From Psammoneis japonica (Eukaryota), in NCBI GenBank assembly GCA_008632985.1, contig QPGO01000219.1:62001-104924 (forward strand): a stretch of 42,924 bases of DNA. The letters run 5' to 3'. Below are positions 1 through 37,215 of the stretch, one piece after another (the stretch's first letter is position 1; the number at the start of each line of letters is the position of its first letter). The notes beneath the pieces are model-generated. The model worked only from the letters and a program-made list of their open reading frames with translations. It was not told where the DNA came from and ran no database searches. The translations under genes and the position numbers were made by a program.

Positions 1-200
1 GAAAGGTGTTGTACACTAGATAGTTCCACAGTAACTCAATTGGGTTCATCTCAGGGGCTCGGGGGTGGGAGGAGCACGAGGCCAACTCGAAAGTTGTCCC
101 ACAACCGCTCATCCAAAATGTCATTGTCACCAGCAACGTGGATCTGTGCATTGTCACAAACAAGCACGTCTTCTTGGTGGCTTTGCGTGAAAAAAGGCTT
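1..200 (-). mobile_element. Tc1/IS630-like (DDE_3) transposase fragment, frameshifted, runs off the window edge
   Basis: Minus strand reads DVLVCDNAQIH...LWDNFRVGLVLLP. After a frameshift at the G-run near 61-70 it reads APEMNPIELLWNYL. This matches the DNAxxH...SPELNPIExxW motifs carrying the last two catalytic residues of Tc1/IS630 transposases. Confidence 0.75.
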
Positions 201-496
201 CTCTCTGTCCAAGTCTGCTCCCTCTGTTGGTGCATGTACGGCCGGTAATGCTCTAGCCCTGCAGCACTTGTGACTGAACAGGAAAAGCAAAGCGGGGTTG
301 AAGTTTCAGTTCCATAGATTTGCATTATGTTATATCGCTACTGGTTAAAGAAATAGATGATGATCCCTTGTGTACTACTATACATGGCTCTTGTTTGTTT
401 CAAACGAGATTGCAAATATGAGTCTCGTCGTCGTTGTTGTATATCCCCAAAACAGAGCATTCCTACCCAAGTTCCCAATTACTAATAATGTAGGTT

Positions 497-2095
497 TCAA
501 TCAATTGTATCCAGCTCCTTCAAGCTCTTTCGCTTTAGAAGGTCAAGTCGTGAGTGCAGCTCTTGCGTTTTCGTTTGGTTTGACTTGCTCATCATCTTTT
601 CCTGCTGCTTCTTCTGGGCTAGTCTGATCAATTCTTGTTGTAATTCATAGGAGTAACCACCCGATGAGTTGGATGAATACGACGTGTCGTCCGCATACTC
701 GTGTTTCGGCGACCCGTTGATTTTCGAGGTTTTTTCCTTCTTAATGTCATGGGACCCACGCTCGATAGTGTCATCAGCCGGCACGCCCTCAAAAGGTTCT
801 TCTTCGGGAATGCCGTGCGGCTTGTTCTTCAGCCCTAGATTGGTTTCGCTCTTTCTCTTTTGCTTGGCTGATAAGGGATCGTTCCTCTTCATTAGTTCCA
901 CAATCTTTTTGTTCTTCAACAGCGGCTTTCCTAGTATGGCAATATGACTCCCCGAGTATGTTTCTGGAATAGCCAAAAGGATCTCTCCCTTGGTGATGCG
1001 GGCGCAGCCCTCACCACCGTCGGAACTCGCCATGAGCTCCGTGTCGGTAATTTCCTTGCCATCCTTGGGTCGGCAGAGGCCGTAGTAGTCTTGATTGCCC
1101 AGCGCCGGCTCGGTTGCGTTGGACGGAATCATTTCGAGAATATCTCCCACAGTTGTAACGCTGGGAGAGTAAATGATTTGGATGAGCTCAAAGATCTTGG
1201 CTTTGGGTTGTAGCAGGAGAACAAATATTTTAAACGGATTGGAACATCCCACGACGGACCCAGCGCTCGACTGACTAAACTGACTCATCGAGTCATTAAG
1301 ATTTTGACTCGATCTCCTACTGAACGAACGGAAGGAGGACTCGCTCATGGCGGAGTCTTTTCGAAAGAGCATTCTCTCGCTTGAATCACGCTTCACCTTT
1401 GTCTTCTTTCCGTTGGCCAGACTGTACCTGATCTGTCTTCCTTCAGTAGTTGAGGGCGACGGAGTCAAGGGAGCAGAGTTGAGGAGAAAGTGACCGCTAG
1501 CTGTCTGCGGATGAACCATTCGTCTGACGCCATCATAAGGAACAATTTCACCACTTTTCATGATCGGAGAGTGTGGCACGGGCGGTGATCCTTCAGAATG
1601 AGAATGAGGCCACCACGAGTCTGCAGAGGATCTGTATTCATCATTATCATACTCCTGAACAGAGGTAGGCGAGATATTCCATCGATCGATTCGTTTCAAG
1701 AGCGAAAGTGGGGACAGAGGGATATCTCCCTTGGGCTTTTCGTAAGACGCGGGCGAAATCCCGATTCTGTCTCCGTCGTGTGTTCTGGGCACAATTGCTC
1801 GTTCTTCTTCGTTCGCGTAGTATGAAGGTTGAGTGATACCGATTCGCTCAATATCATACTCATCATGTTGCTCATCTTCATCATCGTCTGAGAAGGATGT
1901 AGAGTCATTCTGAGAATCACCTGCCGTTGGGGACTGATGAAAGAAAGCAAACGGGGTCACAATCTTGGAGGTTGTTGCCATTTTGCCGGCAGATGGCGAT
2001 CCATAAGTGAGACTGGTAGGCGCATGGTCTGACTGATCCATCTCCAGAGCCATCTTGATGTCCACTAGCAACGGAGGGGGGTTATCCGTGCTCAT
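497..2095 (-). CDS. Hypothetical protein: low-complexity Ser-rich N-terminus and a globular central domain (FKIFVLLLQPKAKIFELIQ...DILEMIP...YYGLCRP)
   Basis: Long intact ORF with normal TA/CG content. First ATG at 2095 (MSTDNPP); the ORF track starts at a non-ATG codon. Confidence 0.75.
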   Translation of the reverse strand: MSTDNPPPLLVDIKMALEMDQSDHAPTSLTYGSPSAGKMATTSKIVTPFAFFHQSPTAGDSQNDSTSFSDDDEDEQHDEYDIERIGITQPSYYANEEERAIVPRTHDGDRIGISPASYEKPKGDIPLSPLSLLKRIDRWNISPTSVQEYDNDEYRSSADSWWPHSHSEGSPPVPHSPIMKSGEIVPYDGVRRMVHPQTASGHFLLNSAPLTPSPSTTEGRQIRYSLANGKKTKVKRDSSERMLFRKDSAMSESSFRSFSRRSSQNLNDSMSQFSQSSAGSVVGCSNPFKIFVLLLQPKAKIFELIQIIYSPSVTTVGDILEMIPSNATEPALGNQDYYGLCRPKDGKEITDTELMASSDGGEGCARITKGEILLAIPETYSGSHIAILGKPLLKNKKIVELMKRNDPLSAKQKRKSETNLGLKNKPHGIPEEEPFEGVPADDTIERGSHDIKKEKTSKINGSPKHEYADDTSYSSNSSGGYSYELQQELIRLAQKKQQEKMMSKSNQTKTQELHSRLDLLKRKSLKELDTID

Positions 2096-3038
2096 TTTTA
2101 CGACAATGGTTGTGGGAAAAGAGACAAGACTCGAGTGGATGGGGCCCAAAAGAAACCGACTTAGGTTGAAGCTTCACGTTGTGTGCACCTTTGCTGCTGG
2201 GCATCGCTGTTCAGTTCGCTGTCACCACCAATCTGCTCGCGTTGCACTGGGCGAGCGGGAAGAGCGAATGCGGCGGTTTGATTTGTCGAAATTTAACCGA
2301 CACCAAAAATTCAAATCGTAAGTAATCAAAAGATTTGCATAAATTTCATTTCACAATACTTAACAGCGAATGCGGAAAGCGGTTATGCGACATTTGGACA
2401 TCGCTGAATTGACGACCAACAACGTACATACCGGTAGAAACTGGACCTACGTCAGAAGCTCAGTTATTCAGAACTTGATGCTGTTTGAGAGAGAGGGAAA
2501 AAAGCGCGGCGCGGCTCTTCTCGACCGTGGACCGAGTGGCGAAGGTCTTCCGTTGATTGCTGCGCGCGAAAGGTTGTGTGTTTGACGTTTGAAGACAAGA
2601 AGTCTTGAACCCAAATACATGTCAGAGACTCCTGCTGCACACCACAAAGCACCCAGCATCTGTCTGCACATGTCATTTCTGCTGTTCGCAGGAGATCATC
2701 AACAAACCTGTTGTGCCCTCCTGAATCACATTTCTGCTGCCACAAAGATCAGATTCACTCAAATCTCCAATGAGCCATGGCCAAGAAGAGGAAGCAATCT
2801 GGAGTGGGCCAGCAATGCAAGTCAGGAGCTGGTGACAGCACACCAAAAGCAAAAAGTGTCATCAAAAAGTTTTTTCTTTTCCAGGGCAACCCGCCACCTC
2901 TCCCAAATCGACGCCAAAAGAGCAACAGCCACTCTCCACCCAACCTCATCTGTGACAATGCTGCCATCACTCCCTCCATTTTACCCATGACCAACCAAAC
3001 TCCTGTCAACCTAAAACCCTCCACAGAATGCCTCTGCT

Positions 3039-4050
3039 TTGACTCTCAAGCCTTTGACAAAACCCCACAAAGATCCTCAAAACAAGCACTGTGTGTCACG
3101 TGCAGCAGTCAAAGCAAGAGATGTTGTCTCATCTTTTGCCACCATTCAGGAGCAAAAAGCCTGTGGTGCCTTGCTTTGCACATTGCAAGTGCCCAATTTA
3201 AATTTTGTTGTTGAGGCTTGTGGTTTGACGCTGCCAAAAACGAAGGGCGCTGCTTTGCAGATGACCAAGCAGCTTGGCAAAATGTGGGGACAAGGACGTG
3301 CCAAGGACAAAAGCAGCAGTGGTCAGTGCTGCGCTGACAACAAAAAATTTCTTGTCCATTTGGCAGCAATTGGAACCTCCTTTTCTCCCAAAAAATCTGC
3401 TGATGAACCCAAATTGCCTGCGAAGGACTGCTTTGCCAGAGCACTTGGTCTGAATCCAAAAGCTGTCTGTTGACAGATGAAACAGGGCAAGATCACCAGA
3501 GTGACCTTGATTGAGAACAAAGAAAATGCTGTGTGGTCTTTGTTGCAACCCCATCAGCATCCTCACAAAAATGTTTCCCCTGAGGCCCACAACGCCTTTG
3601 CACACCAGTTGGGAAATCATCCTGACACAGCGCAGCTGCCCAACTCAAGAGACACGACTCTCACTCAAGGTGAAGATGGAAGAAAAAATGAGTGAACCAA
3701 TGGTCATGCAACGTGTCCACATGTCAGCTCCACAATGACATGTTGAAGCTTGTGCCCATGATGCCAATGGCAAGACCCTGGCCAGCAACAGCCACCATGA
3801 TTCACTTTTTGATTCCCAAGCAACATTGAAAAATGACGAGCAGTCAAAGGTTTCAAGGAAGGCTTTTAAAAGAGATGCAGGTGGCACAGCAAAAATGGTT
3901 GAAAGTTGCAATGATGACCCTGCAACCTCTGAGAACTGTGGCAGTGAAACTGGCAAGAATTTGGAGAGTCAAACTTGCCATTGTCAAGAGGAAGCATTTG
4001 GCGCCAACTCCAATCACCTTTGTCCTGAAGCTCAACATGCAATTGTGACC
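3039..4050 (+). pseudogene. Degraded coding relic, probably from a mobile element
   Basis: Protein-like segments continue across frameshifts and TGA stops (..CFARALGLNPKAV.., ..NHPDTAQLPNSRDTTL.., ..QLHNDMLKL.., ..HFLIPKQH*KMT..). Family not identified with confidence. Confidence 0.35.
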
Positions 4051-4279
4051 ATCATTTGTGAGAGACAAGCTGAAAGGTGAGAGAGGTTGGTGATGATGAA
4101 ATCTTGATCACAAAGAGTCGCCAAATCTTTGACATCAGGAGCAATGGTGTCTTTTTTCTTCAATGCATGTGGGCTCCTCAAATTCCCCATCTGCTGTGTG
4201 TTCCAACACTGCCTTTGGAGCTTCAAGCTGGTGCACATGTGTTTCACCTCATGTTCCTCATTTCTAAGGCACCAATTTA

Positions 4280-5080
4280 AAACCACTTGGTGTCACTTGC
4301 TGGCAGCACAAAATGTTGGTTGGAGTCAAAGATCCACCCACAGCATGAGGCAATGCATTGGTTGTTCACTGGATGGCACAATGTCATGCACAGCCATCAT
4401 TGCAGGTCATCACATCAAATTTGTTGCCCACTTTCAAGGAAATGGCCCAATCCAAACTGCAGCGAAACTTCATTTTGGAGTTCCTTGGTGGGAACTTTCC
4501 TTTCAAATGGCTGCTCAGCATGCTCGTTGCAAATGATGCACAATTGTTGTCAGCTTCAATCTGTTTGGTGGATGTTTTGACATGAGATGCAATGTGATCT
4601 CTCATTTCCAAGTCATCAACATGATGAAGAACACTGGCCAGGGACAAAAAAATGCAAGTGTCTTTGTTTCCTTGCAAGAATTTCACAGGCAGGCTGCTTG
4701 TCAGCAAGCCTGGCCCAATCTCCATTGACGACAACATGTTTCCTTCCAGCAATGAGCAAAAACCATCCTCTGGCTTCCAATCTTTCAATTCCTTCCAAAC
4801 ATCTGGAAACCATGTCTTGAAATTGCACTCAGCCCAATCTTGGGTCAAACAGCATTGGAAGACCATCAATCTCCTCCTGACTCATTCTCTTGACTTTCAC
4901 AATCTGTGTTGAATTGCAAATCAAGTGTGCCTTCCACTGAATCTCTTCCATGCCTTTTTCATCTACAACCTGGACTTTGTTGGGCTTGTGCTTGGCACGT
5001 GCAATGACTTCAACACACCTGTTCATGGGACAGCCCCTAAATTCATTGGCAGTGTCACTGAACCGTTCTTCAAACAACAT
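4280..5080 (-). pseudogene. Degraded papain-fold (C39-like) cysteine peptidase-domain gene
   Basis: Ordered motifs PVKFLQGNKDTCIFLSLASVLH (Q..C helix), then ..PMHC.. (His), then WIFDSN at 4319-4336 after a frameshift, then VLNWC. This is the Q-C-H-D arrangement of papain-like folds. Confidence 0.5.
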
Positions 5081-5552
5081 GCAGCCACTCGTTCATAACC
5101 AAAAGGAAAGAAGGAAGAAAGGCTTTGAATGAAACAGTGTGTGCCTGAATGCGCTTCTCGTCATCGCATCAAGGCACGAAACAGTCAACGGTCTCTTGCT
5201 TGAAGAAGAAGGATTGAGTCGTCATGCGTCGCACCGTTACTTGAGTTCTCTTTGCTATAGCAAGCTAGAGTCTACGTTGCATACACAGCTGATTGACTGA
5301 TGGGGAACGAGAAAGACAACAGAAAGAGACGCATTGAACATGTCTGCGAAACAGCAGGTTGGAAGGTCTCTATCTGAGGCGTCAACCTCTCTAGCTACGA
5401 CATGCTTACTCCTTTCATCACAACGGCTTGAATCATTAGCTTTAGTTCATCTTGGCTGTTGTCGGAGGCGCTACAAGTCATACGTCGAAGCTGTTACTTG
5501 GAGAGCTGTTCATACACAAACATGGGCTTACGAGCACTTTCATAAGATGTTG

Positions 5553-6491
5553 CTACCATTCATTGCGCCTCTTTTCATGGCACACATGACGAATCGTAAT
5601 GGTGCGACCACAAGACTCCCTCAATCGATGGACAACATCATCCACGTGCGATGGCCGTGTCCAGTTGATCCTACACCAAGATTCTTCAACATGATCCGCT
5701 ATAGAAAGATGGGGGTCTTCCTCCTCCATACAAAGACTGCAGGATACCTCCTTTCGCAGCCACGTAAAAGATGCAAAGGTATGTTCGTCCCAGATCGCAG
5801 ATAAACGGGTTCGAAGTTTGGGTAGCTCTTCGATTACGAACCATTCCGTGTCGCTTCCATACGGCTCCTTCAGCTCGGGGCAGTCACGCGATGAACCGTC
5901 CTTTTTGAGTTGTCTGGCGCACAAGCACTGGAGTGTTGATGGTTTTGGTAGTTGTTGCTTGCGAGCCCAGAGTTGAAGCAAAGCAGCATCGGCGTGATTA
6001 CGATCCACGGAACTGGCCAGATCAAAATACGAAACCAAATATTGGTTGCAGGCATCCCGGTTACCAAGACCAAACTCAACCATGGAAGCAAGAAATAATG
6101 CTTCAGGCAAGTAGTATGCAGGCCAGATGCCTAGGACAGTACAATCCAAGAGCAAAGACTTGATAACTTCTTGGGCATCTGTCCACTTTTTGGCATCAAT
6201 CTGCAAGAATGCTGCCCACCACCGGATTGATGGAGCATCGGCTTCATCATTGTGATCTCTGGTAGTATCCAAGGCAGCCTGGATTGCGCTAGCGCGTTGG
6301 ACGTCTTCATCCGGTGACCGTGGGTCAAAGGTGAGCCTGGCCAATCGGACAATTCTTGGTGGGGGGACGGTGCAATCATTCAGCTCGATCCGACCGTGCC
6401 AGAGTGTCACAAACGGACAAGCACGAAGACCATCGCGAATGGCCGCCCATCCCGCTACGCGATCATTCCCGAACATGAGGGGTCTCATCAT
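5553..6491 (-). CDS. Hypothetical helical (TPR-like) protein with Cys/His-rich C-terminus; may be the 3' part of a gene that includes 6488-6868
   Basis: Intact 312-aa ORF with normal TA/CG/Tyr content between two mutated tracts. A decayed paralog lies at 7440-7700. Confidence 0.6.
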   Translation of the reverse strand: MMRPLMFGNDRVAGWAAIRDGLRACPFVTLWHGRIELNDCTVPPPRIVRLARLTFDPRSPDEDVQRASAIQAALDTTRDHNDEADAPSIRWWAAFLQIDAKKWTDAQEVIKSLLLDCTVLGIWPAYYLPEALFLASMVEFGLGNRDACNQYLVSYFDLASSVDRNHADAALLQLWARKQQLPKPSTLQCLCARQLKKDGSSRDCPELKEPYGSDTEWFVIEELPKLRTRLSAIWDEHTFASFTWLRKEVSCSLCMEEEDPHLSIADHVEESWCRINWTRPSHVDDVVHRLRESCGRTITIRHVCHEKRRNEW

Positions 6492-6868
6492 ATTCTTCTT
6501 GATCGAGTCATATGAATTGCTGATTCGTTGTAAAGCGCGCCTCGGCTTCTTTCGCGTAATACTTCACGTTCGCCACCAAACAATCCATTGATCAGTTTCT
6601 CATCTGCTGGCTTACCGGTTCGTGCTCTCTCCCGCATATCGCGAGTAACCAGCTTTGAGTATTCCCAGTTTGAAGCGCTTTCTGACAATTCGACAGATGC
6701 GTTGCGGGCTGTATCACGGAGCCCGCTGATCTGCTCGTGGAGACGAGAGGCAGCGGGACATAAGTCGCCCTTGATGGCATCCCTTGTCTCCCTGATCTTC
6801 GACTCGGCCGCCGACAAGCAGCCTCGTTCAAACAATGCAACGGCTTCATCCAAGGTGGTTGTTGACAT
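6488..6868 (-). CDS. Hypothetical helical protein (MSTTTLDEAVALFERG...)
   Basis: Intact ORF from the ATG of MSTTT. Its TGA overlaps the next ATG (ATGA). Confidence 0.45.
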   Translation of the reverse strand: MSTTTLDEAVALFERGCLSAAESKIRETRDAIKGDLCPAASRLHEQISGLRDTARNASVELSESASNWEYSKLVTRDMRERARTGKPADEKLINGLFGGEREVLRERSRGALYNESAIHMTRSRRI

Positions 6869-7439
6869 GGTTGCAGGTTTCTGCCTTTGATGGTGCTTTG
6901 AGGTGTATGGTGTCTCCGTGAAACTGACACTGTTTTTTAGCGGTTTGGAGCCAATCAGAATGGAGCACGAAATTTTCAACAGTGCGTAGACAGCAAGTAG
7001 ATAGAACCTTGTGCCACAAAATGCTCGAACAATGCAAATCTATTACGGGTGGTAGAGCGAACCCAGTTATTGCTACATTGTACGTTGTGATTTTGCGGGG
7101 CAACTCTACTACACTAGGCTTGTTTTTCTTGGCAAATGTATGCAGCTTGCATTCTCTCGTCAGCACTGCTCTCTCCTAAAAATCAGAGGCGCTCGGCTTC
7201 TTTTTCCATCGCCAACAGCCCAACCAATTCGTCAGTCCCTGTTGCTGACGACACGCCACGGCAAAAACCACCACACCATGAAGATGCAATCGACAGGCAG
7301 CTAACGTCGACGACGAGTGACTGTGATGCATCAGCAGAATCTTTGGGACCCACCAGGCACTGTCGTCATGCTTTTCCTTTGGCACTGAGCTCTCCACCAG
7401 GAGCACCAGTGTGTCGTCAGCAGCAAGGTCCTCTTAAAA

Positions 7440-7700
7440 GGCAGTGCAAACCAAGGGTGCAGACTTGACAATTTCTTTGGCATTGGTCCATTTTTGGCAT
7501 CAATCTACAAGAATGCCACCAACTGGCTTTGGACTGTTGGAGCATTGGATTCATCACAGTCATCTCTGGTGGCAGGCATCTTCCTCCTGTGCCGATCTTG
7601 TGACAGCCACTTTGTTGCAAATTTAACAAGTGCCAAAATGTCTCAAGCCCTGTCACAATGAAATCAAGCTCAAGGTCTCCCTGCCAGAAGAAATGACAGT
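7440..7700 (-). pseudogene. Decayed paralog fragment of the 5553-6491 gene
   Basis: cagtgcaaaccaag..gacttgacaatttc..tttttggcatcaatctacaagaatgc..ggagcattggattcatca..tctctggtgg aligns to 6137-6266. Protein FFWQGDLELDF aligns with TLWHGRIELND. Confidence 0.75.
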
Positions 7701-8989
7701 GCTGACCTTGCTGCTCATTTTCCATTGTCAGAAGCAAGTCTCCAGAAAGATGCTGCTTCAGCCCCTGTGCTTTTGTGTCTTGCCATGCTGACCCTTCTTT
7801 GTTTTTCTGTTGCTCTCCCTGAGCCCAAGTGCTTCACACCCTGGGCTTTCTGAAACATTGTTGTTGTGCCCAATCATGAGATTGCAGCTCAGCTCCCAAA
7901 GATGTGCCAACATTTTGAGCTGCCAGCTCCCAAGTGCACTGCCCTTGTGTCCACGGAGAAATTCCATTGTCTCCTCACCCCAACAATGGAAGCAGCCAAA
8001 CAAAGTTGGCACATCATCTTTTCTGTCAAATGCCAAGGGGCACAGCAAATCTGAAGGTTTTCATTGCACCCTTGGTGCCAACCAAGTGTTTGAGACATGC
8101 TTTTTTGCTTGGGTGCACATGGCAGAATTTTGAGTTTTTCATCAGATCTGTCTTTCTGGAATTGTCCCACTGCTGCTTGCCACAGATGTTTTAAAGTGAG
8201 GCTCTCCACTCTCAGAAAACTTTGCTGCTCCGGCCACTCCCAGAAAACTTTGCCACTCCAAATTCACTGACCCTCATTCTTGTTGCAGCACAAGCAGCAA
8301 CCTTTGAGTTCATTCAAGGGTGCCAGGCCCACCATCATTTTTGAAAATGTCTGCAGCAGGTGTCTTGGGCAAACAAGAATCAATGTCCATGCAGCCCAGA
8401 TTGTCTGCAACATGCCCAACAAGAGAAAGCACTGCCAACATGCAAGGAAGGTTGTCACGTGTGAAAACAAGAGTCGGGTGGCTCTGTTTCTTGTTTGCCA
8501 CCTGCTTGGCAATGTGCCACTCCAATCTCATTTCAAGCACTGGGAGGGGCAATGCATCAGCAAAAGTTTTTGTGATGTCTGTCAAGTCCCTGCAGTGATG
8601 GAAACACCTGTCAATCTTGAAAGCACATTCTGACACCAGGCATGGTCAGAAAGACACCCCAACAGCTGCTTTTGAGCTCATGATGCCATGTGAGTTGAAG
8701 TCATTGGTGTGGTGGCTCTGAATGTCATGTCAGCAGTCACATCAAAGTCAAACAACCAGGGCTCTTTTTGGCAATTTCAAAGTTGCACATTTTTGTTTCA
8801 GCAAGTTTGCTGCAAGCCAAACTGAGCACAGGTTGTCACAATCACAAACTCGTTGTCAATCTGTTCAGCAGCTGTCTTGCAACAAGGCACTTCATTGGGG
8901 TTCTCTGTTTCCTTTGCTTCAAATTTCAAGCCTTCAAAATTGTGCTTCTTGTGTGTGACATCTTTCAACCCCGGCAACTTAAAGTTCAT

Positions 8990-11376
8990 TGCAATTTTAA
9001 CAGCAAAAGAGAAGCAAGCTTTCCATCAGCTGTCTTTTGCTCAATTGCTGCTTCCACAATGTCACACAAACAAAGAATTTTGTTGGTGAAATCACACTTT
9101 GGCTTTGCTGCCTCATGCAGTCCTCTTGTGTTTTGATCTTTTTTCTTGGCATGCTGCTCCACTTGCCAACCATGGTTGTCAGTTTTGGCAAGTTGCACCT
9201 GCTCAAAGTTGGGTCCTGCTGATGGCCAGCACACAGATGCCACCTTTCCCTTGGAATCCAAGTCTGGCAGAAACCCCAGCTCACTGAGATCTTGGTGTGA
9301 CATTTGACCCCATTCTCCTTGAGTCTTGAGCAGCTTGCTTCTCTTCTGGCAAAGCTGAGGGGTGCAAGGGTGATGGCAGGTTTTCAACAACTCTTCAAAA
9401 ACTGGCATGGACTTTGTTTCTTTGTGTCTGACATTTCAGCACTGATGAAGCCATTGACAATGCTCTTGCCAGAAATGATGCAGCCTTCTCCAAGGCTGCT
9501 GGAAGACAGCAGAGGAACCCAACAAGAGCTTTTTTCTTTTGGCCCACCAGTTTGACATTGTGTTTGCTTTTGGCTCATTCATCATGGTGATGATGTTTGC
9601 GCTCAAGCCAACAATCAGGTCGTCTCTTGCTGTGGATTCATTTAGGATCTGCTTGATCAGTTCAAACAGTTCTGAGAGATCAGCTGGCTGCTGCACTCCT
9701 GTTGTTGTGCTGCAGAGCACTTGTTTTGGCACAGCAAATTGCTGACCTTGTCTGGCTTCTTGCATGTCTTGCACAAAAACATCTGAAGCTAATTTGCGCA
9801 ACCATCAGACCATGACACACCCTTCGACCAATCTGTGGCAGGATGACTGGGACTCTCATCTTGATCCCACCCAAGAGCCCACCAACAAACTGGCCAAAAA
9901 GCTCAGGCAGCAACACATGATCTTGCAGCACTGGAATTTTTTGTTTGCAACAGTGGCCCCACTCTCATCATTCTTGTTGGCATGCAGCAAGACAAGCAAA
10001 GCCATTGAGATCAGCAGGGGGGCAACATTTGTGGGTGTTCATTGTCAGAGACCAGGGATTTCAACAGCCAAAATGCCATCAACAGGGAGCTCCCCATCTG
10101 TTGAGCCAGTTGCCACAACATGCAGAGGCACCATTGGACCACCAGCTGCAAAAGTGAATGCAAGCCAAGGTCAAAGACTGCCACTGCTGAGTGGGTTGTT
10201 GTCCACCTTGTGCATCAATTAACCACCAGTCTCCTCAGCTAGATCAGTGAGCTTCCAGCTCCATTTGTGACTCGTCTTGGCACCTTCAAAAGCAGAAACA
10301 GTTGCATTGTGTCAGTTAAAAGGATGAGTTTTGGGTTCACCAGAAACAACTTTTTTGTGCTGCACTCAGCTTTTGCAAACTTGACAGTTTTCTTGGCTTT
10401 GATGCTGAGCCTGCTCCACTCTTGTCACAATGCTCCCACCCTCTCCATGACTTTGGTCCCTCAATGAGGTGTGCACTCAGTGCAGTGTTTTGACATGTCA
10501 GCGCCATTGGAATCAAATTTGTGCTGATGATTTGAGTCTTGGTCTGGGTTGCAGACTTCTTTTTAGTCAACAAGCAGCTTGCTCCCTCCACAGTCAACAA
10601 GCAGCTGGCTCCCTGCATGGCACCGGGGTCAATTGTCTTTTGGCAGTGTTGTTTGATGCTTCAACACCAGACTGCTCTTCCATTGTCTCTTTCATTTCTG
10701 TCAGGCCAAACTGTTCCCCAATCACAGCCTTCACCTTGGCCATCACCACAGTCTGTGGTGGTGTGTGGCTCATCATTCAGGGTTGGCCTGTGAAGCCAGG
10801 TCCATTTTGCATCAATTTGCACAAGCCAGAGATGTGAGCAATGAGGCATCATGTTGATTTCTTCAGGGCATGAAGCAAAACAGCAGCCCACCTTTCCTTG
10901 CTCTTGGCTGGGTGTCAGGAAAGATGCTCACAGAGCTCTGGGCTGTTTTTGACCAACCAACAGCTTTGCTGAAAGGGTCGCACATTGGCAGAGCCTTGGC
11001 ATTTTTTGGTGGCATGACAACTTTCACCCACTTTGAATTTCTTACATTGACATTTGCTTCAACCTCCTTTGATGGTTGCTTCAATGATGCTGCCATCTTT
11101 GCTGCCAGCGCTTTTTTGGAAGCCCAAGCAACAATTTTCAGCTGCAGCAAAGGGAGCAGAGGTGGACTCTCTCATCATTTGTCCACCTCAAGTGAGTCAC
11201 ATGACACCACAACATGCTTCACTTGTGAAAGTTGTGAAGATTGTCTTCATCCCTTGCAGCAAATCCACCCAGCTGCCTCCACAACAGCTCCAAGCTTGCC
11301 AACAACCCACCGAATCTTGGCTGCTTCAGCACCCTTCTTCAACAATTTCACCGCTTTCAAAATGTTTTTGACTTGA
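8990..11376 (-). mobile_element. Degraded pogo/Tc5-like (DDE_1) transposase
   Basis: Motifs in order on the minus strand: VNPKLILLTD (~10340-10312); LAFTFAAGGPMVPLHVVATG..ELP..EIPGL (~10165-10050); VSWSDG (D at 9804-9806); STTTGVQQPADLSELF (D at 9679-9681, compare TTxxLQPLDV of DDE_1). Multiple stops and frameshifts. Confidence 0.6.
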
Positions 11377-12399
11377 CCAAGCATCTCAAGTGTTCATCAT
11401 GCCCCTTGAACATGCCGGGTGTCCACAACTTACTTCGCCTTTTCTGGTTTGCTGCTGCTGCCAGTGTTGCCACTGCCTTGTTTGTTTGAAGCTGTTGGCA
11501 TGATGAGACTCAACTTTTTTGAGGATCATCACAAAATGTCACTCACATGCCACCCACACAAAGGCTCAAATTTAAGTTTTGCAAGACACATTTCTTCCAA
11601 GTGCTGACAGACCCTAAAAAAAATGCTGAAACCACCAAATTTGTGCACAAAAGACAGTGACCACCTTGAAAACTGCAGCATCTGCCCATTTGCCAACAAA
11701 AAAGCCCCGCAGGAGAGGAAGCTTTGCTGGATCAGCATGATGCCAAATGGGCATGATGCAGTGGTGATGTCAGTGCCTTGGAAGGCAACAGGGGCACAAT
11801 TGATGCTGTCAGGCACATCATTGGTGGGCCAGCTTGTCACACACAAGAAATGCCACATGCACGCAGATTTTTTGTTTCAAATTCTGCAATGTCACCAGTT
11901 TTTTAATTTGGCATCTTGTGGTCTCTCTCTGCACCTTCTCTTCAAAAGAGACCCAGACACAAGCTGACAACCAAAGCAACAAACCAGAACAAGAATGGAC
12001 ATGCTGCAGTGGGGGACCAGTGCACAGCTGGGGACTGCAACCTCAGCTGCCGGTGTTGGCCTGCCAGCATTTGTTGCAATGTGTCACACAGTGCAGGGCT
12101 TGTGCAAGGAACAGTTGGCTGATGCTGGGTGGAAGACAAAAAAGCCCCTGTGCCTCCACAACACACAGAGACAAACAGACAAACACAGTCAATCAAAAGC
12201 AAGAGTTCACAAAAAGAAGCCAGAGTTTGGCTCAGCAAAGCAACCAAACAAATGCAAAGCAAGTCCTGCTGAGCAACCAGGGTGCTTTTTCCTGCAATCC
12301 CACGAACTTGGCTCAGCCCAAATGAACTTTACAACCTTCAACATTGCTTGGGCATCATTGTGCATGTTCACTTGGTCATCTCCCTTTCTCATTGGTGGT

Positions 12400-14300
12400 G
12401 CCTGCTCATCTTGCTCAACTGAGCTGACAGTGCTCTTTGGGCTCTTGGTCTTGGTGTTGAGGTGCAAAAGCCACAAAGATCATTGCTGTCACTTGCTCCA
12501 GTGATGGATTTCAACATCATCTCCTTCTGGTGTTTGTGGTGTGCACCTTCCACCTTTTTCTTCTTCTTCTCTTCCTTTTTGTCTTTGAGCTGCAAGTTCT
12601 CCTCTGCAGCTGTGTCTCTGCCTCACCCAAATGATCTGCACTCATCTCCTCAGCTTCCATCTTGTGATGACAACAATGCATCCTTCTTCAAAGCAAGTGC
12701 CACTGTGGTTGGGGAGCTGCCTTGCACAAATCAGCAATGTGAGCCAGCCGCAAATTGAAATTTTCTTTCTTTTTTGCATCATCTGAGAATTGCTGTTGTG
12801 ACAATTCTCTGTCATTTGTGATGGCTTTTGCCAACTCAGAGCACCACTTTGGCAAAAAAGACTTGCACAAACAGCTGCACCTCAAGTCCAGAAAAATTCT
12901 TGCTGTCCTTGTCAGCCAAGAGAACATGCAAGAACACATGGTTGCACCACCTGCCAACAACAACATCATGCAATGCCTCCAACAGTGACACCATCCCTTG
13001 TCTTTGTGAGGGTGTGGACCAAATGTGAAAACTTTTCTGCAACCCTGAATGCCAGAACAACATGCCATGTGAGTGTCCTTTTCCACATTGTCCAAGAGTC
13101 ATCAGGATTTGTCCTGCTGCAACACTCATCATGAAAAACATGACCATCATTGTTGTGAATGTCAGACTTCTTCATCTTGTTCCACTTGACAACTGGAGCA
13201 TGACGCAGCTTGTTGTCCACCTGCTTCATCTGAGCACCTTCTGATGCAATGGAATGATGGTTGTTTGTTTCACACCAATCCCCTTGACCGTAAAAAGGGG
13301 CAGCACTTTGTGACATGTGCAAACTTGACGTGCAATCCCTTCAACACCAAATGTCCAATTTGTTCTTCTTTTCTGACAGCATCTTCACTCTCTGACAACT
13401 GTCAAACACAATCTTGCCAAAAGGTGGCTGCACAATCTTTTTCATGTGTCACGGCTCAACTTTTCAGGTTTGCACTCTTCCAAATCACCAACATTGACCT
13501 GGCTTTCTTTGTGAGTTTCAAGCCTGACAGTGCCAAAATGACTCTCTCACCAATGTCGCTTCTTTTGTCAAGTGGTTTGTCCCAAACTCAGGATTGGCAC
13601 TTGCTTGTTGCAGCTGCATGGTGGGTGATGTGCTTTTGGCTGGAGTGAGGCCTTGCCAGAACAACTCCAGAGCTCGCTGGAGCAACCAGCTTCTTTGCAC
13701 ACAGCACAAAAGTGTTGTCTCCATCATTTGCCATGAGAGCTTCTCCCACTCCCAGCGCTCCTTGCAGACCCCCACTTTCAAGTCTGAGCAGTGAGACATG
13801 GCACCCACAACATTCTCAAAACCCAACACTTCCTTGTGACAAGACAACAATGTCTTCTGACAATGAAGACATGCACCCCACTTGTTGTTCACACCAAAAG
13901 AAATGGCTTGAACAAGCCCATCCAAAAAAAGACAACCACACAATGCAATTGGATGGTGCAATTGTCTGTTCATCATCACCCACCCCAATCATCAAAACCA
14001 AAAAGTTTCTTCACATGCTGAACATGGTCAACAAGCACACCAACTCCACTCTCTTGACATGGTGCAACAAAATGGCAACAGCAAGACATTTCTTTGTGGC
14101 GCCCCTTTCCAACATTCCTGCCCAGCACCAACATCATCACCATGTTGTTGTTCTTGTCACCCAGACATTTCACAGTTTGTGGTCCATTCTCATGGCAAAA
14201 TTGTTCTTCAACAAACCAATCAGCAACAATGTTGTGGAATGGGTTTTCTTGTTGTTTGATGGATTTGAACCCCCATCAACACCATTCTTGTGATGAACAA
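12400..14300 (-). pseudogene. Further degraded coding relic(s), unidentified
   Basis: Minus-strand protein-like pieces (QLKDKKEEKKKKK; KWCSELAKAITNDRELSQQQFSDDAKKKENFNLR; KWNKMKKSDIHNNDGHVF) broken by frameshifts. Confidence 0.3.
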
Positions 14301-17300
14301 TGTGAGGTGGGACAGAAGGCTGGTCTTTTGGGTTCCAGAATCTTCTGTGGTCAACTCACTCAGCCACACAAGACCTTGTGGGCACCACATCTGGGGATCA
14401 GTTGCAGTTTGAAGACATTGCCAGTGCCAAGTTTTAGAGACACCCTGCTTTGAACAATGTCTTTCCATTGTGTTGACAAACCTCTTGACTTGAGGGGACA
14501 ACTTTGGCAAAAAAAATTGTTTGCTTGAAGGGTGCCACCACCAACAGAAGAATCTGCCAGCTCTTGTCTTTTTTTGGTGGCTGCTGCAGCTGGCATGACC
14601 ACTGTGATTGCACTGATCACACACTTGTGTGTCTGCATGACAGATGCACTCCAGAGAGGGGCCCAACATCAGCCAACACAAAATTGAAATGGATGGACAG
14701 AGGCAGCCTCCAAGGCAGTTCCAGATGACAAAAGCACCAAGACACTGAGAATCACAGCAAACAAACTGAAACAGGAGTGCAGCTGGTGCACTGGTCATGC
14801 ACTTGTGTTTGTGCAACAAATGCACTGCAGAGAGGAGGTCAACATCAGTCACCACAAAATTGAAACAGGTGAGCAGAGAGGCAGCCTCCAAGGCAGCTCC
14901 AGATGGCAAACACAAAACACCAAGCATTGCAGCAATCAATTGAGTTGTTGTTCAAGACAGTGGCAGTTTTTGTTCAGAAACTGTTGGGGTGAAGAAGAGT
15001 TTGGCAGAAATTTGGAATGAATGACGAAAGCAACTGAAAAATGATGTGTGCAAAGCAACCAAAAAATGACATGTGCAGTGCCTCTTGCATGAATGGCACC
15101 AGCACTGAAGTGCAAACAAAAAAATGAAAGAGATGGGGTTGTCCACAAGAATGAAAGTGACTGTGCACAGACACAATTGTCTTGTGATGACAATGAGACA
15201 ACTTTCAAATAAAAACAACAGACAGCTCTGTGCAATGCAAAGGGAAAGAGGGGGTTGCAGAGTGGCAACAGCAGCATGCTGCATTGTGGCTCATGCATGT
15301 GGAAGTCAGCATTGATCAATGCACTGTGAGAACAACATTGCATGCCATCTGATGCCGTTCTTTTTGTGACAAAAGTGCACTCCTTTTTGATTGAAAACAT
15401 GATGCACTCTCATCATCACAATTTTGTGTCATCATCAAACACTTTGATGTTTGCCGAATGCCCAAAAATGTGATCTCTGCTGGTGGAGACAAAATTGTCT
15501 GGTGCTGAAACCCGCATTGAAAATCTCACATGACATGTTGCAGATCACCTGGAGCTGGAACAGGCCACCAGGTGACATGCAAACTGACACTTTTGTCAAC
15601 TTGTTGCACATGTCAAACACACATTTGAGCACACACATCTTCAATGCCAGCATGAAAAAATAAAATGCCTCATCTGCAGGTGCCATGCTCCAAGGGGCTT
15701 AATTTCTCAATGAGAAACAAACTCCAAAAGTGACAAACAGCATGCTCAATGAGAAAATGAAATGACAGCACAGGACAGCAGCTGCTTCCTCCACCTTGTC
15801 ATGACAGGAGCAGTGCCATTCAGGCCACCACACTTTGCTTGGTCTGTGGATTGTGGATGCCATTTCTCTTTTGTCCACAGCAAGCAATGGTCACAGACCT
15901 GCCTGCAGTGATCTCAGTGACTTTTCATTGAAAAGTTTTTGCACCTTCTTCTCAGGCCATTTTGCCCCCACCCTGCTTTGCAGCCAATCAACTTGAAAAT
16001 GTGATGCCATTAAATTTGATGCCCTGATGCTGCACAAAGAGTGGCGCACACTTTTTAGATGATGTCACACAGCCCACAGCCTGTGTGTCAACAAAAAGCT
16101 TGCAACAAGTTGAACAAGGTCACATGCATCATGCATGTGTGATGCTGACTGGTGGGTTGAAAGTGCCAGCCTTTGTCATTGAAAAGCAGCTGCTTTTGTC
16201 AGTGAAAAAAATGATGGCTGCTTTGGGCAACTTCCTCCAATTGTTTCAATCTTTGTGCACAAGAGTTTGTTGAATGACGTGGCATGACATGGCATCTAAG
16301 AAAGAGAGAGAGAGAGTTCCAAAACCTTGTGCAAATTTGTGTGCTGCTGTGTGAGTTGCACAGAGGTGGAACCCAGTTTTCATGGCTTTGATCTTGCTCT
16401 GCAGCTTTGGCAGAGCTGGAGGGCAACAAAAAAAGCTTCTGTCAGTTGCTTCAACTGGGTGTCATTCAGCAACTGAAGCCCTGCTGCTGTTTGCTGCGTG
16501 GCATTGGTGTCCAAATGAGCCCACATGGTGCATTGTTTCTGTGTTGCACAGATCTGTTTTGGGGGCCTTGCGCACAAGGAGTCTCATGGTGCACCAGAGC
16601 AGGCATCACACTCATCCAGATTTGCTTGGGATTTTTCCATGCACAAAGGGGGGGGTTGGATGCAACCCTCTGTGCACAGCTGGCAAGTCAATGCTGTCAC
16701 TGAAAGGGAATCCCATTGGGCTTTCTGTCCCACTTGATGCACTCCTTGCCTTGGCAATCTGCAATGGCTGTGGGGGTTGCCACAAGGTGTCAATGCAAAG
16801 TGCAAAGTGTTGCATGACAACAGGTGCCTGCTCACACCCAATGCAACAAATTGTGTGAACCAAGTGACTCGCTCCAAAGAGTGAGGTGAAAAAGAAAAGG
16901 CAAGGGCTGGTGACTCTGAGACTCTTTTTGCAAAGTCACTCAGCAAACCACATCAGCACATGAGCTAAAACATCTTTCCTTCAACATGTCTGGGTGCCCT
17001 GCAGTGCTTTAAAGTTGGTCTGGTGGCAGCACTGAGGATTGGCGTTGCTTCAGCGCTGACTTCTTTCAAGTCAGAGCTGGGCAGATTGGTGCACTGTCTC
17101 CCACCAGAGAAGCCAACCAATGCCAGTGTAGTGGCGGACACATGCACTCACAAATTTCTGTGCTCCGCATCTCTGTGCTTTCATGTGCACTCCCCACTGC
17201 ACTGTGCCCTCTTTGTCTGCAGGGCACCCCACTTCAGCAGCCAGAAGGGATGGGATCTCATCCCAAGCAAATTTTGGTCATCCCTCTCTTCCTTTGCATC

Positions 17301-17564
17301 AACAATCAACTGACACAAATCTAAAACATCGCGACGGATGCAGGGGTTGTCACTCAACTGACTCTTTCTGCTCTCGAGCCATCGAACCATTTCAATCCTT
17401 GCCTTCTGGAATTCCTCATTCTGAATTCCTTCCATTGTCATGGCCACATCCATTTGCAGCTGCTCTCCGTTTTCATTACGTGTCGTTCCCGTGAGGAGCA
17501 TCTCGCCCATGTCTCCCAGCTCTCTAAATTTACACCAGTAATTCCGCGGCCACCGCTGGGCAAA

Positions 17565-17758
17565 GTGGCAGTCGGTCTAGTACAACACGGCCTCCTCGGC
17601 CAACGATGACGGAATCGAAACATTGGAGTCACATGGGTGTTGACACAGCTGGTGACAAAAGGAACAGCTCTCGAGTAGGGAGGGGATTCAAAAAGTTTGG
17701 AGCCGGTTCAGCAAAGTTTTGTCCCGCAACAATCTTCGGACAAGCCGCCTTATCTGAA
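17565..17758 (-). pseudogene. Local duplicate of an internal EPL1 segment (source 18206-18432)
   Basis: 194 bp alignable to 18206-18432 with 12 substitutions and deletions of 8 and 25 bp. Confidence 0.95.
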
Positions 17759-17882: not shown

Positions 17883-19682
17883 CTAGAGCGGACCGATAGC
17901 GAACCTCTCTTCGCCCCAAAGCTGATCATCTGTATCCAACCAATCATCAACCTTCACAAGGACGGCTTCCCCATCGTTATCATCTGTTTCCGGAGTGGCT
18001 CCCGCAGTACCCGGTGCAGTTGCAGGAGTTTCGAAGTCATCCTTGAGAGCAGCAACACATATTTCTTCGATTCGCCGACTCAGATTTACATGGTCTAAAG
18101 GTTGAGGTAAAAGGTCAATCAGCCGTTCCTTGGGCTTGTCCGATCGCTTCACGCAGTCACCAGCTGTGTAAACCGTTGGTGGCGGCATTGTCGGGTGACC
18201 AGGATGTGGTAGTCGGTCCAGTACAACACGACCTCCTCGGCCAATTCGTGGACGATGACGGAATCGAAACGTTGGAGTCGCATGGGTATTGACATAGCTG
18301 GTGACAAAAGGAACAGCTCGGTCCCAGGATGTGACATATGACTCTCGAGTAGGAAGGGGATTCAAAAAGTTTGGAGCCGGTTCACCAAAGTTCTGTCCCG
18401 CAACAATCTTCGGACGAGCTGCCTTATCTGAAGACATCCCTTGACGAGCCGCTGCACTCTCATCGATTATATCCCCCGACGTTGGCATTGGAGAGCGTCT
18501 TGATGAATCGAGCTTTCGCTTCCTTCCTCTCTTCGCGGCAGCCTCAGATGTATCAAAACACTTTGGTACGTCAAGTAGACTATCCAACGCTTGACGACTC
18601 AGATTAGAGCTCAACCGACACCACCCACTCGTGTCAACAGCATCGTACATTCGCTGATCAAACAAGTCTGCTTGCATTTGAATCATTGATCGATTCAACT
18701 CTTCTCGTCTCTTGACCAAGTCCAGCATGACGCGAACCATGTCAAAGTCACTTCGTAGCTGCTTCATTTTTCGAAACGCTTCCATGTCATTTTGACGCTT
18801 CTTTCGTAGCTTGTACTTTTCCTTCTCGCGTGGCCTAAAGACAAGATGAGGATTGGTATCATCGGTAGCCGTAACAGGCCAAAACCGTCGAAGAAGAGGT
18901 CGCTTCAATTTTGAACGCTTCTGCAACCAATAAGTGTAAACGTCTTGGATGACATGCTTGACTGTAACTATTCCAGCGCGTGCCTTTACAGGAAACAAGT
19001 GCAAAAGCTGTGGGACTTTAGAAAATAAAAGGCGCTCCGCGTGATCCGTAGTAATGATGGTTTCGAATCCTGTTTCCTTTTCGAGAGCGTCAATCATTTG
19101 TTCAAGCATACCAAGAGATATCTGTGGCCGACGACGAAGCGAAGTATGATCCAAACTATCATCACTTTGATGCGAATCAACAGTTGGTGTGGATGCGCCG
19201 AATCTGGTGTTGCTCTGGAGCCATGCCTCGTCTTCTGCGTCAGCATTGTATTCCAGTTCTGTCGATAGTTGCTCCTCCGTTGGTTTGCGATAACGAACAT
19301 AGGATCTTGGTATCTGGTAGTTTGAAGGAACATCGGTGCCATACGTTTCTACATCGATGATTCGCGGTGTCGGGATTTCCTTCTTGGGCTTGGGTTGCAT
19401 GGACGGCGTCTAAAATAGAGTGTTGCAAGATGAAAACTTCAAAATGTGAGAGAAATCACGTCAAGTCTGTATGTCAACCGACGCATTGCATCATGCAACC
19501 TGGTTACCGGTATGAATACGTACCGACGTTGATGCTGCCTTTCCCAAATCAGCCACTGTCTTTATGTTTCCATCGCTATCTTCATATTTCAGTGTATCTG
19601 ATGCGCGCCTCACTATCGCTATCTTTTTGTAGACATTGAGTGCCGACACTCCCTTGATTGCCGGTGCAGTCGGCGGCGCCAT
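17883..19682 (-). CDS. EPL1: Enhancer of Polycomb-like protein (NuA4/TIP60 subunit); exons 19682-19524 and 19409-17883
   Basis: EPcA motifs IPTPRI..Y..P.SYVRY, EYNADAEDEAWL, VYTYWLQKRSKLKRPLLRRF, DTNPHLVFRPREK, and FRHRPRIGRGGRVVLDR. In-frame GTACGT..TTTTAG intron at 19523-19410. Confidence 0.9.
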
Positions 19683-36510: not shown

Positions 36511-37215
36511 TGAACGGGCTGGCATCACTTCTCGTTTTACCAACATGGACAGCTTCGAGATTCCCACCCTGGCGAACCCAAGAAGCCAGCAATTCACGTG
36601 GTCGGTGCAACAACGGGCCATGAACAAGCACTTGTGTCTTTTCGTTATTTGTCATGTTCAAATTTTCCATCGAGGCTTCACCTTGAAGCCATCGCTCAAT
36701 GTCTGCGTGACAGCAAAAACGCGTCAATCCTCCGGCACCAAATCTGGCCTGTTCGCGACACATCTGAGGAAGCAGCTTGACATTGTTTCTCCATGATTCC
36801 TCTCTTCGACTGTGGAGTCAAAGCTGTGTTGGCTTTCTTGATGATGAATTTTTTTCAATGATGAGAGCTGCCAGCAATTGCCTTTGCCTGTTTCGTTCCA
36901 AGATTCAATTCTTCGTGTGAGTTGCTTCTCGGACGACGGACGCTTCAGAGCAGGCAAGCAGCGTGCCAGCACTCCAGAGGCCGTGAGTGTGCAGCAGTAT
37001 TTGACAATGACAAAAGCTTGTAGCTTGACCAGCATCAGCAACAGCCAGCACCACGGGGGGTGCCTCATTGCAAATGTGAGAGACGAAAGATGACACAACT
37101 GCGTTCCAAGCCTGCCCTTTTTCGTTCCAAGCCGTTTCACTTTCAAAAATGAAAAATTGAGCAAGAGCAACTCCAAGAGGGCGATGCTCTTGTTGTGGCA
37201 CGCTTTGTCAGTTCT
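33781..37215. other. TpA-depleted but largely CpG-retaining tract III
   Basis: TA is rare and mostly TTA/TAA, while CG is still common (e.g. tcgtcgcgct, ggcgcgtg). Confidence 0.85.

What the first reader, a model, noticed from the sequence alone, without database searches (positions are those of the whole stretch)
2470..2590. 100-200 bp halos at tract edges: TA gone, CG retained or enriched
Seen: at 2470-2590, 5140-5235, 7180-7400 and 17330-17520 the sequence is CG-rich (gcgcggcgcgg, tgcgcgcgaa, acgtcgacgacg, gcgacgg) but has no TA other than TTA/TAA. Normal TA resumes beyond. Inference: the TA-directed process spreads about one nucleosome or one repair patch beyond the CpG-decay zone, as expected of excision-resynthesis by an error-prone polymerase or of a chromatin-tethered enzyme.
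Basis: partly seen in the sequence, partly recalled or inferred. Interest (0 to 1): 0.72.

Follow-up and report, generated by a model that had tools for sequence, protein, structure and literature searches.

The report
TA-only rims of mutated DNA blocks
In this alga-like genome, blocks of repeated DNA have had nearly every TA and CG letter pair rewritten to TG or CA; at their edges TA loss typically reaches about 150 bases further than CG loss, and the surviving CG pairs appear spaced like nucleosomes, which hints that DNA packaging shapes a little-known mutation process.

Summary
The four halos are real and the offset is systematic: in 803 kb of this genome, 58 of 71 usable edges put the TA boundary outside the CG boundary (median 153 bp; shared-edge null -1). 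Copies elsewhere show that halos 2 and 4 lie inside continuous repeats and keep ancestral CGs. CG is not enriched on average: it is already partly lost in the rim and fades over about 700 bp; a fixed 147-bp step is rejected. TA loss runs about 8 times faster than CG loss, and multi-kb TA-only tracts exist, so a fading dose largely explains the rim. Error-prone patch repair is disfavoured: change is confined to TA (AAR 1 of 267), almost transition-only, without strand runs. Added here, moderately supported: surviving CGs peak about 90 bp inside the last TA and again every ~180 bp, out of phase with surviving TAs, so the rim looks like the first nucleosome of the block. Closest known: TpA hypermutation in Bigelowiella natans (one preprint). 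Enzyme unknown; adenine deamination is inferred. This scan noted the tracts and halos before on other contigs; the nucleosome phase was not in the notes shown.

The parts
2470..2590 (.). Halo 1: TA-free, CG-retaining rim at the left edge of tract 1
   Evidence: 13 CG, 0 TA; last sensitive TA 2448, stray ATAC 2616; offset 64 bp
2600..5130 (.). Tract 1: CG- and TA-depleted, TG/CA-rich block of repeated DNA
   Evidence: dinucleotide profile; 2754-2900 has matches on many contigs; 4866-5202 has a copy on C10
5140..5235 (.). Halo 2, inside a duplicated stretch (4866-5652) that runs on across the edge
   Evidence: 8 CG, 0 TA; in the deep-tract copy at C10:647447-648294, 12 of 13 TA and 17 of 18 CG of 5287-5652 read TG/CA
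7180..7400 (.). Halo 3: rim at the left edge of tract 2
   Evidence: 13 CG, one CTAA; last sensitive TA 7139; offset 189; no other copy found
7400..17320 (.). Tract 2: 9.9-kb CG- and TA-depleted block, with a mutated copy (7442-7570) of 6137-6263
17330..17520 (.). Halo 4, inside one repeat element (about 17126-17558) whose other copies lie deep in tracts
   Evidence: 10 CG kept where 46 of 54 cells in six copies read TG/CA; 18 further TG/CA sites swapped in a copy, i.e. former TA or CG sites
17565..17758 (.). Partial copy of 18206-18432 (EPL1-type gene) beyond halo 4, partly mutated
   Evidence: 3 of 6 TA and 3 of 13 CG turned to TG/CA; 12 mismatches in 194 aligned bases
33830..37200 (.). 3.4-kb TA-less but CG-retaining tract over a young tandem duplication: the halo state without a CG-poor core
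   Evidence: copies 33781-35162 and 35146-36525 are 97.5% alike, 15 CG<>TG/CA and 4 TA<>TG/CA differences, 61 shared CG
497..2173 (-). Intact gene whose 5' end faces halo 1
   Evidence: 558-aa frame; covered by contigs of run X2 at 373-2171; no Pfam family
5553..7039 (-). Intact minus-strand frames (5553-6563, 6488-7039) between halos 2 and 3
   Evidence: no Pfam family
17883..19409 (-). Enhancer-of-polycomb-like gene whose 3' end faces halo 4
   Evidence: PF10513 EPL1, E 1e-10; one X2 contig covers 17845-19696 and skips 19410-19523

Best explanation
A halo is the outer rim of a block of repeated DNA on which two mutation processes overlap. (1) Shown: a TpA-specific process turns TA into TG or CA (A to G on either strand, preferring TA followed by C or T), about 5-10 times faster than CG decay. 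(2) Shown as a pattern, inferred as chemistry: CG decays to TG/CA, as expected of methyl-cytosine deamination. (3) Shown: both start at about the same line near neighbouring genes; CG loss builds up over several hundred bases with a length that differs between edges, so TA is already saturated where CG is still mostly present. (4) Moderately supported: CG survival is modulated at about 180 bp, first maximum about 90 bp inside the last TA. Inferred: CG is lost mainly in linkers and kept in nucleosome cores, while the TA process also reaches core DNA, so the typical halo is the first nucleosome of the block. (5) Inferred: the TA process is adenine deamination in DNA by a TadA/ADAT-type enzyme guided by silent chromatin, fixed one site at a time over many generations.
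For: Offset 58 of 71 edges. CG-poor DNA is nested in TA-less DNA: TA-rich and CG-poor is 0.2% of 803 kb. Pairs of an intact and a tract copy: at 11% CG loss 69% of TA is gone, at 23% 84%; rate ratio 8.5 in 11 pairs; this ratio predicts TA survival 0.12 where CG survival is 0.78, as seen in the first 100 bp. A gradient of variable length reproduces all four likelihood statistics, fixed and variable steps do not. Edges cross continuous repeats. Spectrum in 13 low-divergence pairs: TAY 71 of 90, TAR 24 of 62, AAR 1 of 267, AAY 10 of 190; 95 transitions, 4 transversions at TA. Phase: period 178, maximum at 89 bp, 7 of 500 jitters; free fits in halves give periods 174-198, maxima 69-96; CG-TA antiphase in CG-poor tracts 0 of 150, 7 of 400 held out. 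TadA/ADAT2-like gene and two A_deamin loci present. TA preference of TadA enzymes: passages of PMC12265680. Linker CG methylation in DNMT5 algae: passages of PMC9998398 and PMC12633428.
Against: No methylation, nucleosome or histone data. The edge phase vanishes with a blurrier anchor (451 of 500), is weak at the fixed period in the first three contigs (40 of 400), and a GC control also scores 3 of 200 (GC overlaps CG). CG-CG periodicity in CG-poor tracts did not replicate in held-out DNA (55 of 400; search loci alone 139 of 400; window tracts 192 of 400); CG-TA antiphase is not significant in CG-rich TA-less DNA (18 of 150); the test on copy pairs was inconclusive. Antiphase could arise from new TA being made by C-to-T change in linkers. 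Which phase is core is not shown. The 8.5 ratio comes from pairs chosen for low CG loss and is biased upward; TA survival in the first bin is biased down by anchoring. DNMT5 was not identified. tRNA deaminases are general housekeeping genes, so their presence is no evidence of activity on DNA. 13 of 71 offsets are negative.
Confidence: 0.6

Rival explanations
1. Separate reach: a chromatin-tethered TA mutator acts a fixed distance, about one nucleosome, beyond a sharply bounded methylated domain, leaving CG in the rim untouched.
For: Median offset 153 bp in all, in non-window and in later-fetched edges; first CG maximum about 90 bp inside the last TA; with the last-TA anchor CG in the first 150 bp is 38-58/kb against about 54 outside; CG-TA antiphase implies different geometry.
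Against: Fixed 147-bp step: KS p 0.0085, spread too wide p 0.01; likelihood contrast +34.6 observed against -56 +/- 10 expected; CG goes on falling to about 700 bp; 18 already converted sites against 11 kept in halo 4.
Confidence: 0.15
2. Advancing front: the silent block creeps outward over evolutionary time; rims are its youngest parts and, like young transposons, have lost the fast target (TA) but not yet the slow one (CG).
For: Same TA-first order in whole young copies; multi-kb TA-only tracts include a Copia-type RT frame of 1780 aa with 0.6% Tyr; variable rim lengths.
Against: Cannot be told from a static taper by sequence alone; a phase that stays coherent from the edge suggests edges anchored for a long time.
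Confidence: 0.15
3. One reading: T:G mismatches from methyl-CG deamination trigger excision and resynthesis by an error-prone Y-family polymerase (Pol eta type), whose patch overshoots the methylated zone.
For: TA loss encloses CG loss everywhere; Pol eta favours TA over AA and a 3' T (passages of PMC8749460); a slight excess at AAY (10 of 190 against AAR 1 of 267); five IMS-family loci.
Against: AA, the other half of the WA hotspot, is near background; 4 transversions against 95 transitions at TA (many more expected for Pol eta, recalled); neighbouring TA changes share a strand 105 of 211 times, null 107; TA is wiped out over tracts up to 16 kb where CG is largely kept.
Confidence: 0.07
4. 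Chance or composition: GC-rich promoter or UTR patches that never held many TA.
For: Each gap alone has p 0.01-0.10; halos 1 and 3 face 5' ends of frames; halo GC 0.52-0.55.
Against: Shared-edge null never reached the observed median (0 of 5000 resamples); TG/CA products rise in the rim; halos 2 and 4 are repeat interiors; offsets do not differ between 5'- and 3'-facing edges (33 and 32 edges, p 0.87).
Confidence: 0.03

Closest known systems
TpA hypermutation of integrated viral DNA in Bigelowiella natans (Mettrop et al., bioRxiv 10.64898/2026.01.13.699255; parts 1-3 of 5 read)
   Same: A to G / T to C transitions confined to TpA, in bounded regions; TA-poor, TG/CA-rich clusters with transposon domains; ADAT2-like candidate proposed, not tested.
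   Different: There measured as new mutations in two viral regions that still hold 3.3% and 9.2% TpA; here near saturation over 54% of 803 kb, on transposons and duplicated gene pieces, nested with CG decay. The words CpG, nucleosome, boundary, flank and diatom do not occur in its main text.
RIP and RIP leakage in ascomycetes (passages of PMC2973834)
   Same: Repeat-associated transition hypermutation with a gradient that fades with distance from the repeat.
   Different: RIP makes TA from CA; this destroys TA. Here the gradient can lie inside the repeat, whose gene-proximal end is spared, and intact copies persist beside mutated ones.
CG methylation of transposon islands in diatoms (DNMT5a; passages of PMC9998398) and methylation leakage in 200-bp TE flanks of Neurospora (passages of PMC7518705)
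   Same: CG to TG/CA decay in repeat islands within an otherwise CG-normal genome; edge gradients of a few hundred bases.
   Different: Does not account for TA loss; methylation itself is not observed here.
Nucleosome-linker CG methylation in DNMT5 algae (Huff and Zilberman 2014, seen only as cited in PMC9998398 and PMC12633428)
   Same: A nucleosome-length period in CG.
   Different: There gene-body methylation; here a weak period in CGs that survived decay inside silent repeats, out of phase with surviving TA.
Pol eta / mismatch-repair A:T mutagenesis of antibody genes (passages of PMC8749460)
   Same: TA is the best target, 3' T helps, spreads from a cytosine lesion.
   Different: AA is not a hotspot here, transversions are rare and no strand runs are seen.

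Membership tests
B. natans-type TpA hypermutation | A:T to G:C change confined to TpA | tested here: met
   TAY 71/90, TAR 24/62 against AAR 1/267, AAY 10/190, CAY 12/241, GAY 3/182
B. natans-type TpA hypermutation | Almost only transitions, both strands | tested here: met
   of 135 TA: TG 50, CA 48, kept 27, other 10 in 13 pairs
B. natans-type TpA hypermutation | Regional, on foreign or mobile DNA | tested here: met
   bounded tracts; RVT_2 frame in one; repeats; also host gene duplicates
B. natans-type TpA hypermutation | About 1000-fold raised rate of new mutations, in some lines only | not testable with these tools
   needs mutation-accumulation lines
B. natans-type TpA hypermutation | Caused by an ADAT2-like deaminase (proposed only) | tested here: inconclusive
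   TadA/ADAT2-like gene on C38; activity on DNA unknown
RIP | C to T at CpA, creating TA | tested here: not met
   CA to TA 15 and TG to TA 13 against TA to CA 242 and TA to TG 222 in 40 pairs
RIP | All copies of a duplication are hit | tested here: not met
   40 pairs with one intact and one mutated copy, some under 3 kb apart (pairs were selected for this contrast)
RIP | Gradient at repeat edges | tested here: met
RIP | RID/DIM-2 dependence, sexual stage | not testable with these tools
   27 C5-methylase matches, not sorted into families apart from one DNMT3-like
Pol eta / mismatch-repair patch mutagenesis | WA hotspot including AA | tested here: not met
Pol eta / mismatch-repair patch mutagenesis | Strand-coordinated clusters | tested here: not met
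   105 of 211 (null 107); low-divergence pairs 20 of 49 (null 25); repeated rounds could blur runs
Pol eta / mismatch-repair patch mutagenesis | Y-family polymerase encoded | tested here: met
   6 matches at 5 loci; Pol eta itself not identified
Methyl-CG decay in diatom TE islands | CG to TG/CA in repeats | tested here: met
Methyl-CG decay in diatom TE islands | 5mC present at these sites | not testable with these tools
   no methylation data
Methyl-CG decay in diatom TE islands | DNMT5 gene | tested here: inconclusive
   two divergent candidates examined: one DNMT3-like, one unassigned; four other candidate loci not examined
Linker-phased CG methylation | Nucleosome-length period in CG | tested here: inconclusive
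   significant; mixed in held-out DNA

The most novel reading that the evidence does not exclude
This lineage runs a genome-wide, chromatin-guided adenine-editing defence that acts on nucleosome-wrapped silent DNA, in the opposite phase to linker CG methylation and independently of it; the rims record the first silent nucleosome beside each gene, so nucleosome positions and the age of silencing can be read from sequence alone.
Probability: 0.3. Interest if true: 0.88.

Novelty: new variant of a known kind. Interest (0 to 1): 0.66.

Why it matters
A natural process that rewrites A to G in chromosomal DNA at TpA has been reported in one preprint, with no enzyme shown. Here its footprint covers about half of the DNA examined and lies on top of CG decay, so tract edges give a ruler for both: TA first, CG later and nucleosome-modulated. 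That narrows the mechanism (against patch repair, towards a site-by-site deaminase on silent chromatin), gives sharp predictions for methylation and nucleosome maps, and points to a natural DNA adenine deaminase, an activity otherwise known mainly from engineered base editors.

Tried and rejected
Fixed one-nucleosome step, variable sharp step and one common gradient all failed against simulation. Gene orientation does not change the offset (genes approximated by long frames, 6 of 71 edges had none). No unmutated copy of halo 1 or halo 3 was found, so their lost TAs are inferred from the general pattern. Sequencing runs: 3 listed, one study, no RNA holder listed; the two laid runs gave no independent strain; X2 does not cover the tracts, which is not used as evidence. 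Phase test on copy pairs: underpowered. Poly-A as a linker marker: only a weak hint (TA-A4 0.047, 95% 0.001-0.119 in CG-rich TA-less DNA; three other combinations null). Protein atlas on two flanking genes: no hit above 0.85. Pfam on eight tract frames of the window: nothing. No match to the MPG glycosylase family (does not show absence), EndoV present. Paper searches for a diatom report of TA loss or of such edges returned only the Bigelowiella preprint; searches on periodicity returned 0 and 1 papers. The library lacks most subscription papers, and the preprint's supplements were not seen; its tables could bear on flank preference and edges.

Full report
Setting. The window is C221:62001-104924 of a 91-Mb, 597-contig genome. 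I call it diatom-like from gene content, my own recall and earlier notes of this scan; I did not test the taxon. Two tracts (2600-5130, 7400-17320) lack both CG and TA and are rich in TG/CA; a third (33830-37200) lacks TA but keeps most CG. 'Sensitive TA' below means TA neither preceded by T nor followed by A.

The observation. The four halos hold 13, 8, 13 and 10 CG and 0, 0, 1 and 1 TA, the two TA being CTAA and TTAC. Taken singly the gaps have chance levels of about 0.06, 0.10, 0.013 and 0.02. A sensitive TA at 2616 lies inside the CG edge of halo 1. Separate two-state segmentation gave 45.6% ordinary, 18.3% TA-less but CG-rich, 35.9% TA-less and CG-poor, 0.2% CG-poor with TA. Of 104 edges with 1400 bp on both sides, 33 were dropped for lacking a CG-poor interior. 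Of 71 kept, 58 have the TA boundary outside the CG boundary; median 153 bp, SD 168, range -199 to +556, 17 between 100 and 200. Without the window's four: 54 of 67. In the two contigs fetched after the first test: 26 of 31. A shared-edge null glued from real DNA has median -1, and 0 of 5000 resamples reached 153. The offset is real.

CG is kept, not enriched. Anchored on the fitted TA boundary, CG per kb runs 55-56 outside, 50, 37, 37, 24, 25, 22, about 15 at 400-500 bp and 8.5 beyond 700 bp; the first 150 bp hold 0.73 of the outside level (0.63-0.84), or about 0.88 if anchored on the last TA itself (38-58/kb). TG/CA o/e rises from 1.17 to 1.51 and GC from about 0.47 to 0.51 in the first 100 bp, so the GC-rich look is in part the product of TA loss. 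A fixed 147-bp step fails (KS p 0.0085; likelihood contrast +34.6 against -56 +/- 10), as do a sharp step of variable place and one common gradient; a gradient whose length varies between edges (best grid value 140 bp, log-SD 0.8) matches all four statistics within two SD.

The edges are positional. Halo 4 lies inside a repeat (about 17126-17558) with six copies deep in tracts (a seventh locus, L097, lies in little-mutated DNA, aligns over 114 bases only and was left out of the count). Its 10 CG read TG/CA in 46 of 54 copy cells, so they are ancestral survivors; 18 other TG/CA sites are swapped in a copy and so were once TA or CG. Converted sites run 16 of 18 inside, 18 of 29 in the halo, 1 of 7 outside; which of them were TA cannot be told site by site. 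Halo 2 lies inside a stretch (4866-5652) whose copy on C10 has lost 12 of 13 TA and 17 of 18 CG that the window keeps at 5287-5652. The part spared is the part next to intact frames. No copy of halos 1 or 3 was found.

Order and spectrum. From 76 alignments of ordinary DNA to tract DNA, 40 non-redundant pairs were kept, the ordinary copy taken as ancestral; reverse changes are rare (CA or TG to TA 28 against TA to CA or TG 464). TA loss is 69% where CG loss is 11%, 84% at 23%, 95% at 85%. The rate ratio is 8.5 in 11 pairs chosen for low CG loss, hence an upper-leaning figure. With it, CG survival 0.78 predicts TA survival 0.12, as seen in the first 100 bp (anchoring lowers this bin). The TA-only state is not an edge speciality: 123 of its 147 kb lie in 35 segments of 1 kb or more, up to 16 kb, among them a 1780-aa frame with a Copia-type RT domain and 0.6% tyrosine and the window's tandem duplication. 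In 13 low-divergence pairs A to G occurs at TAY 71 of 90, TAR 24 of 62, AAY 10 of 190, AAR 1 of 267, CAY 12 of 241, GAY 3 of 182, with 4 transversions against 95 transitions at TA; neighbouring changes share a strand 105 of 211 times in 32 pairs (null 107). Pol eta treats both TA and AA as hotspots (passages of PMC8749460); its transversion load is recalled, not read. Patch resynthesis therefore fits poorly, though IMS-family genes exist and repeated rounds could blur strand runs.

A nucleosome-scale signal. Distances between surviving CGs showed peaks near 180, 360 and 550 bp. With local repeats masked, CG survivors in CG-poor tracts have period 184-186, amplitude 0.07 (0 of 150 jitters), TA survivors in CG-rich TA-less tracts period 172-174 (0 of 150), and CG against TA is in antiphase in CG-poor tracts (-0.05, 0 of 150); GC, CC/GG and TG/CA controls are flat and ordinary DNA shows 0.008 and -0.009. 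In held-out DNA (C10, C31 and 21 search loci) the antiphase held (7 of 400) and CG-CG in CG-rich tracts held (0 of 400), TA-TA was borderline (23 of 400) and CG-CG in CG-poor tracts did not hold (55 of 400). At edges, anchored on the last sensitive TA, CG oscillates about its decay with period 178 and first maximum at 89 bp (7 of 500, free search); free fits in halves give periods 198, 178, 174, 186 and maxima 89, 69, 96, 78; random TA anchors in ordinary DNA give 0.013 against 0.15. Against: no signal with the fitted anchor (451 of 500), 40 of 400 in the first three contigs at the fixed period, a GC control at 3 of 200, an inconclusive test on pairs, and new TA made by C-to-T change could mimic the antiphase. 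I rate this as probable, not settled.

Mechanism. Shown: systematic offset, positional edges, TA-first order, TA-only transition spectrum, graded CG loss. Inferred: CG loss is methyl-cytosine deamination (diatom TE islands are CG-methylated through DNMT5a; passages of PMC9998398); it is linker-biased as in other DNMT5 algae (Huff and Zilberman 2014, seen only as cited), which would make CG-keeping blocks nucleosome cores and the halo the first core; the TA process is adenine deamination (TadA enzymes prefer TA; passages of PMC12265680). The genome holds a TadA/ADAT2-like gene, two A_deamin loci, many C5-methylases including a DNMT3-like one, EndoV and no MPG match; DNMT5 was not identified. 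None of this shows activity. A static taper and an advancing front cannot be separated from one genome.

What is known. Its text does not mention CpG, nucleosomes, boundaries or diatoms. RIP leakage gives a similar gradient with the opposite chemistry (passages of PMC2973834); methylation fades over 200-bp TE flanks in Neurospora (passages of PMC7518705). Searches found no report of this in diatoms. This scan has noted the tracts, the TAY preference and halos on other contigs; the 24 notes shown there did not mention a nucleosome phase, but over 3000 were not shown.

Verdict. New variant of a known kind; interest 0.66.

Noticed in passing
G000:C10:647447-648535 (L099, L002) against window 4866-5652 and 2214-2422: On C10 the match to window 5652 is followed directly by the match to window 2214, as if 2214-5652 were one unit joined tail to head (tandem or circular form); in the window both ends of the unit are unmutated.
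   Followed up: partly
window 1-2080 against 2051-20000: In run X1 the contigs over the first gene have depth about 150-160 and differ by about 2% from the window, while the rest has depth 60-70: a second copy or allele of that gene, or a hemizygous remainder. Window 2-170 also matches C10:530126-530291.
   Followed up: no
L034:1788-7127 (G000:C2:671788-677127): 1780-aa open frame with a Copia-type RT domain and only 0.6% tyrosine: TA loss removes TAA/TAG stops and Tyr codons, so long frames in TA-less DNA may be dead.
   Followed up: partly
G000 C43, C10, C59, C78, C27 and C297/C301 (L115-L122): Unusually many full-length C5 cytosine methylase domains; the copies on C297 and C301 lie in TA-less DNA themselves.
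   Followed up: partly
L110:313-1785 (G000:C79): Frame joining a deaminase-type zinc motif to a 2OG-Fe(II) dioxygenase (DIOX_N, 2OG-FeII_Oxy).
   Followed up: no
whole genome: No match to the MPG/AAG glycosylase family, which removes hypoxanthine from DNA in other organisms (recalled), while EndoV is present; may bear on fixation of A-to-G changes.
   Followed up: no
TA-less DNA in 803 kb: TA survival depends strongly on flanks: ATAT 0.00, ATAC/GTAT 0.02, CTAA/TTAG 0.40, TTAA 0.49 of the ordinary level in CG-rich tracts; TTAA is higher (0.60) in older tracts, hinting at new TA being made.
   Followed up: partly
window 34053-34800 and 35418-36165: Internal repeats of about 200 bp inside each half of the tandem duplication.
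   Followed up: no
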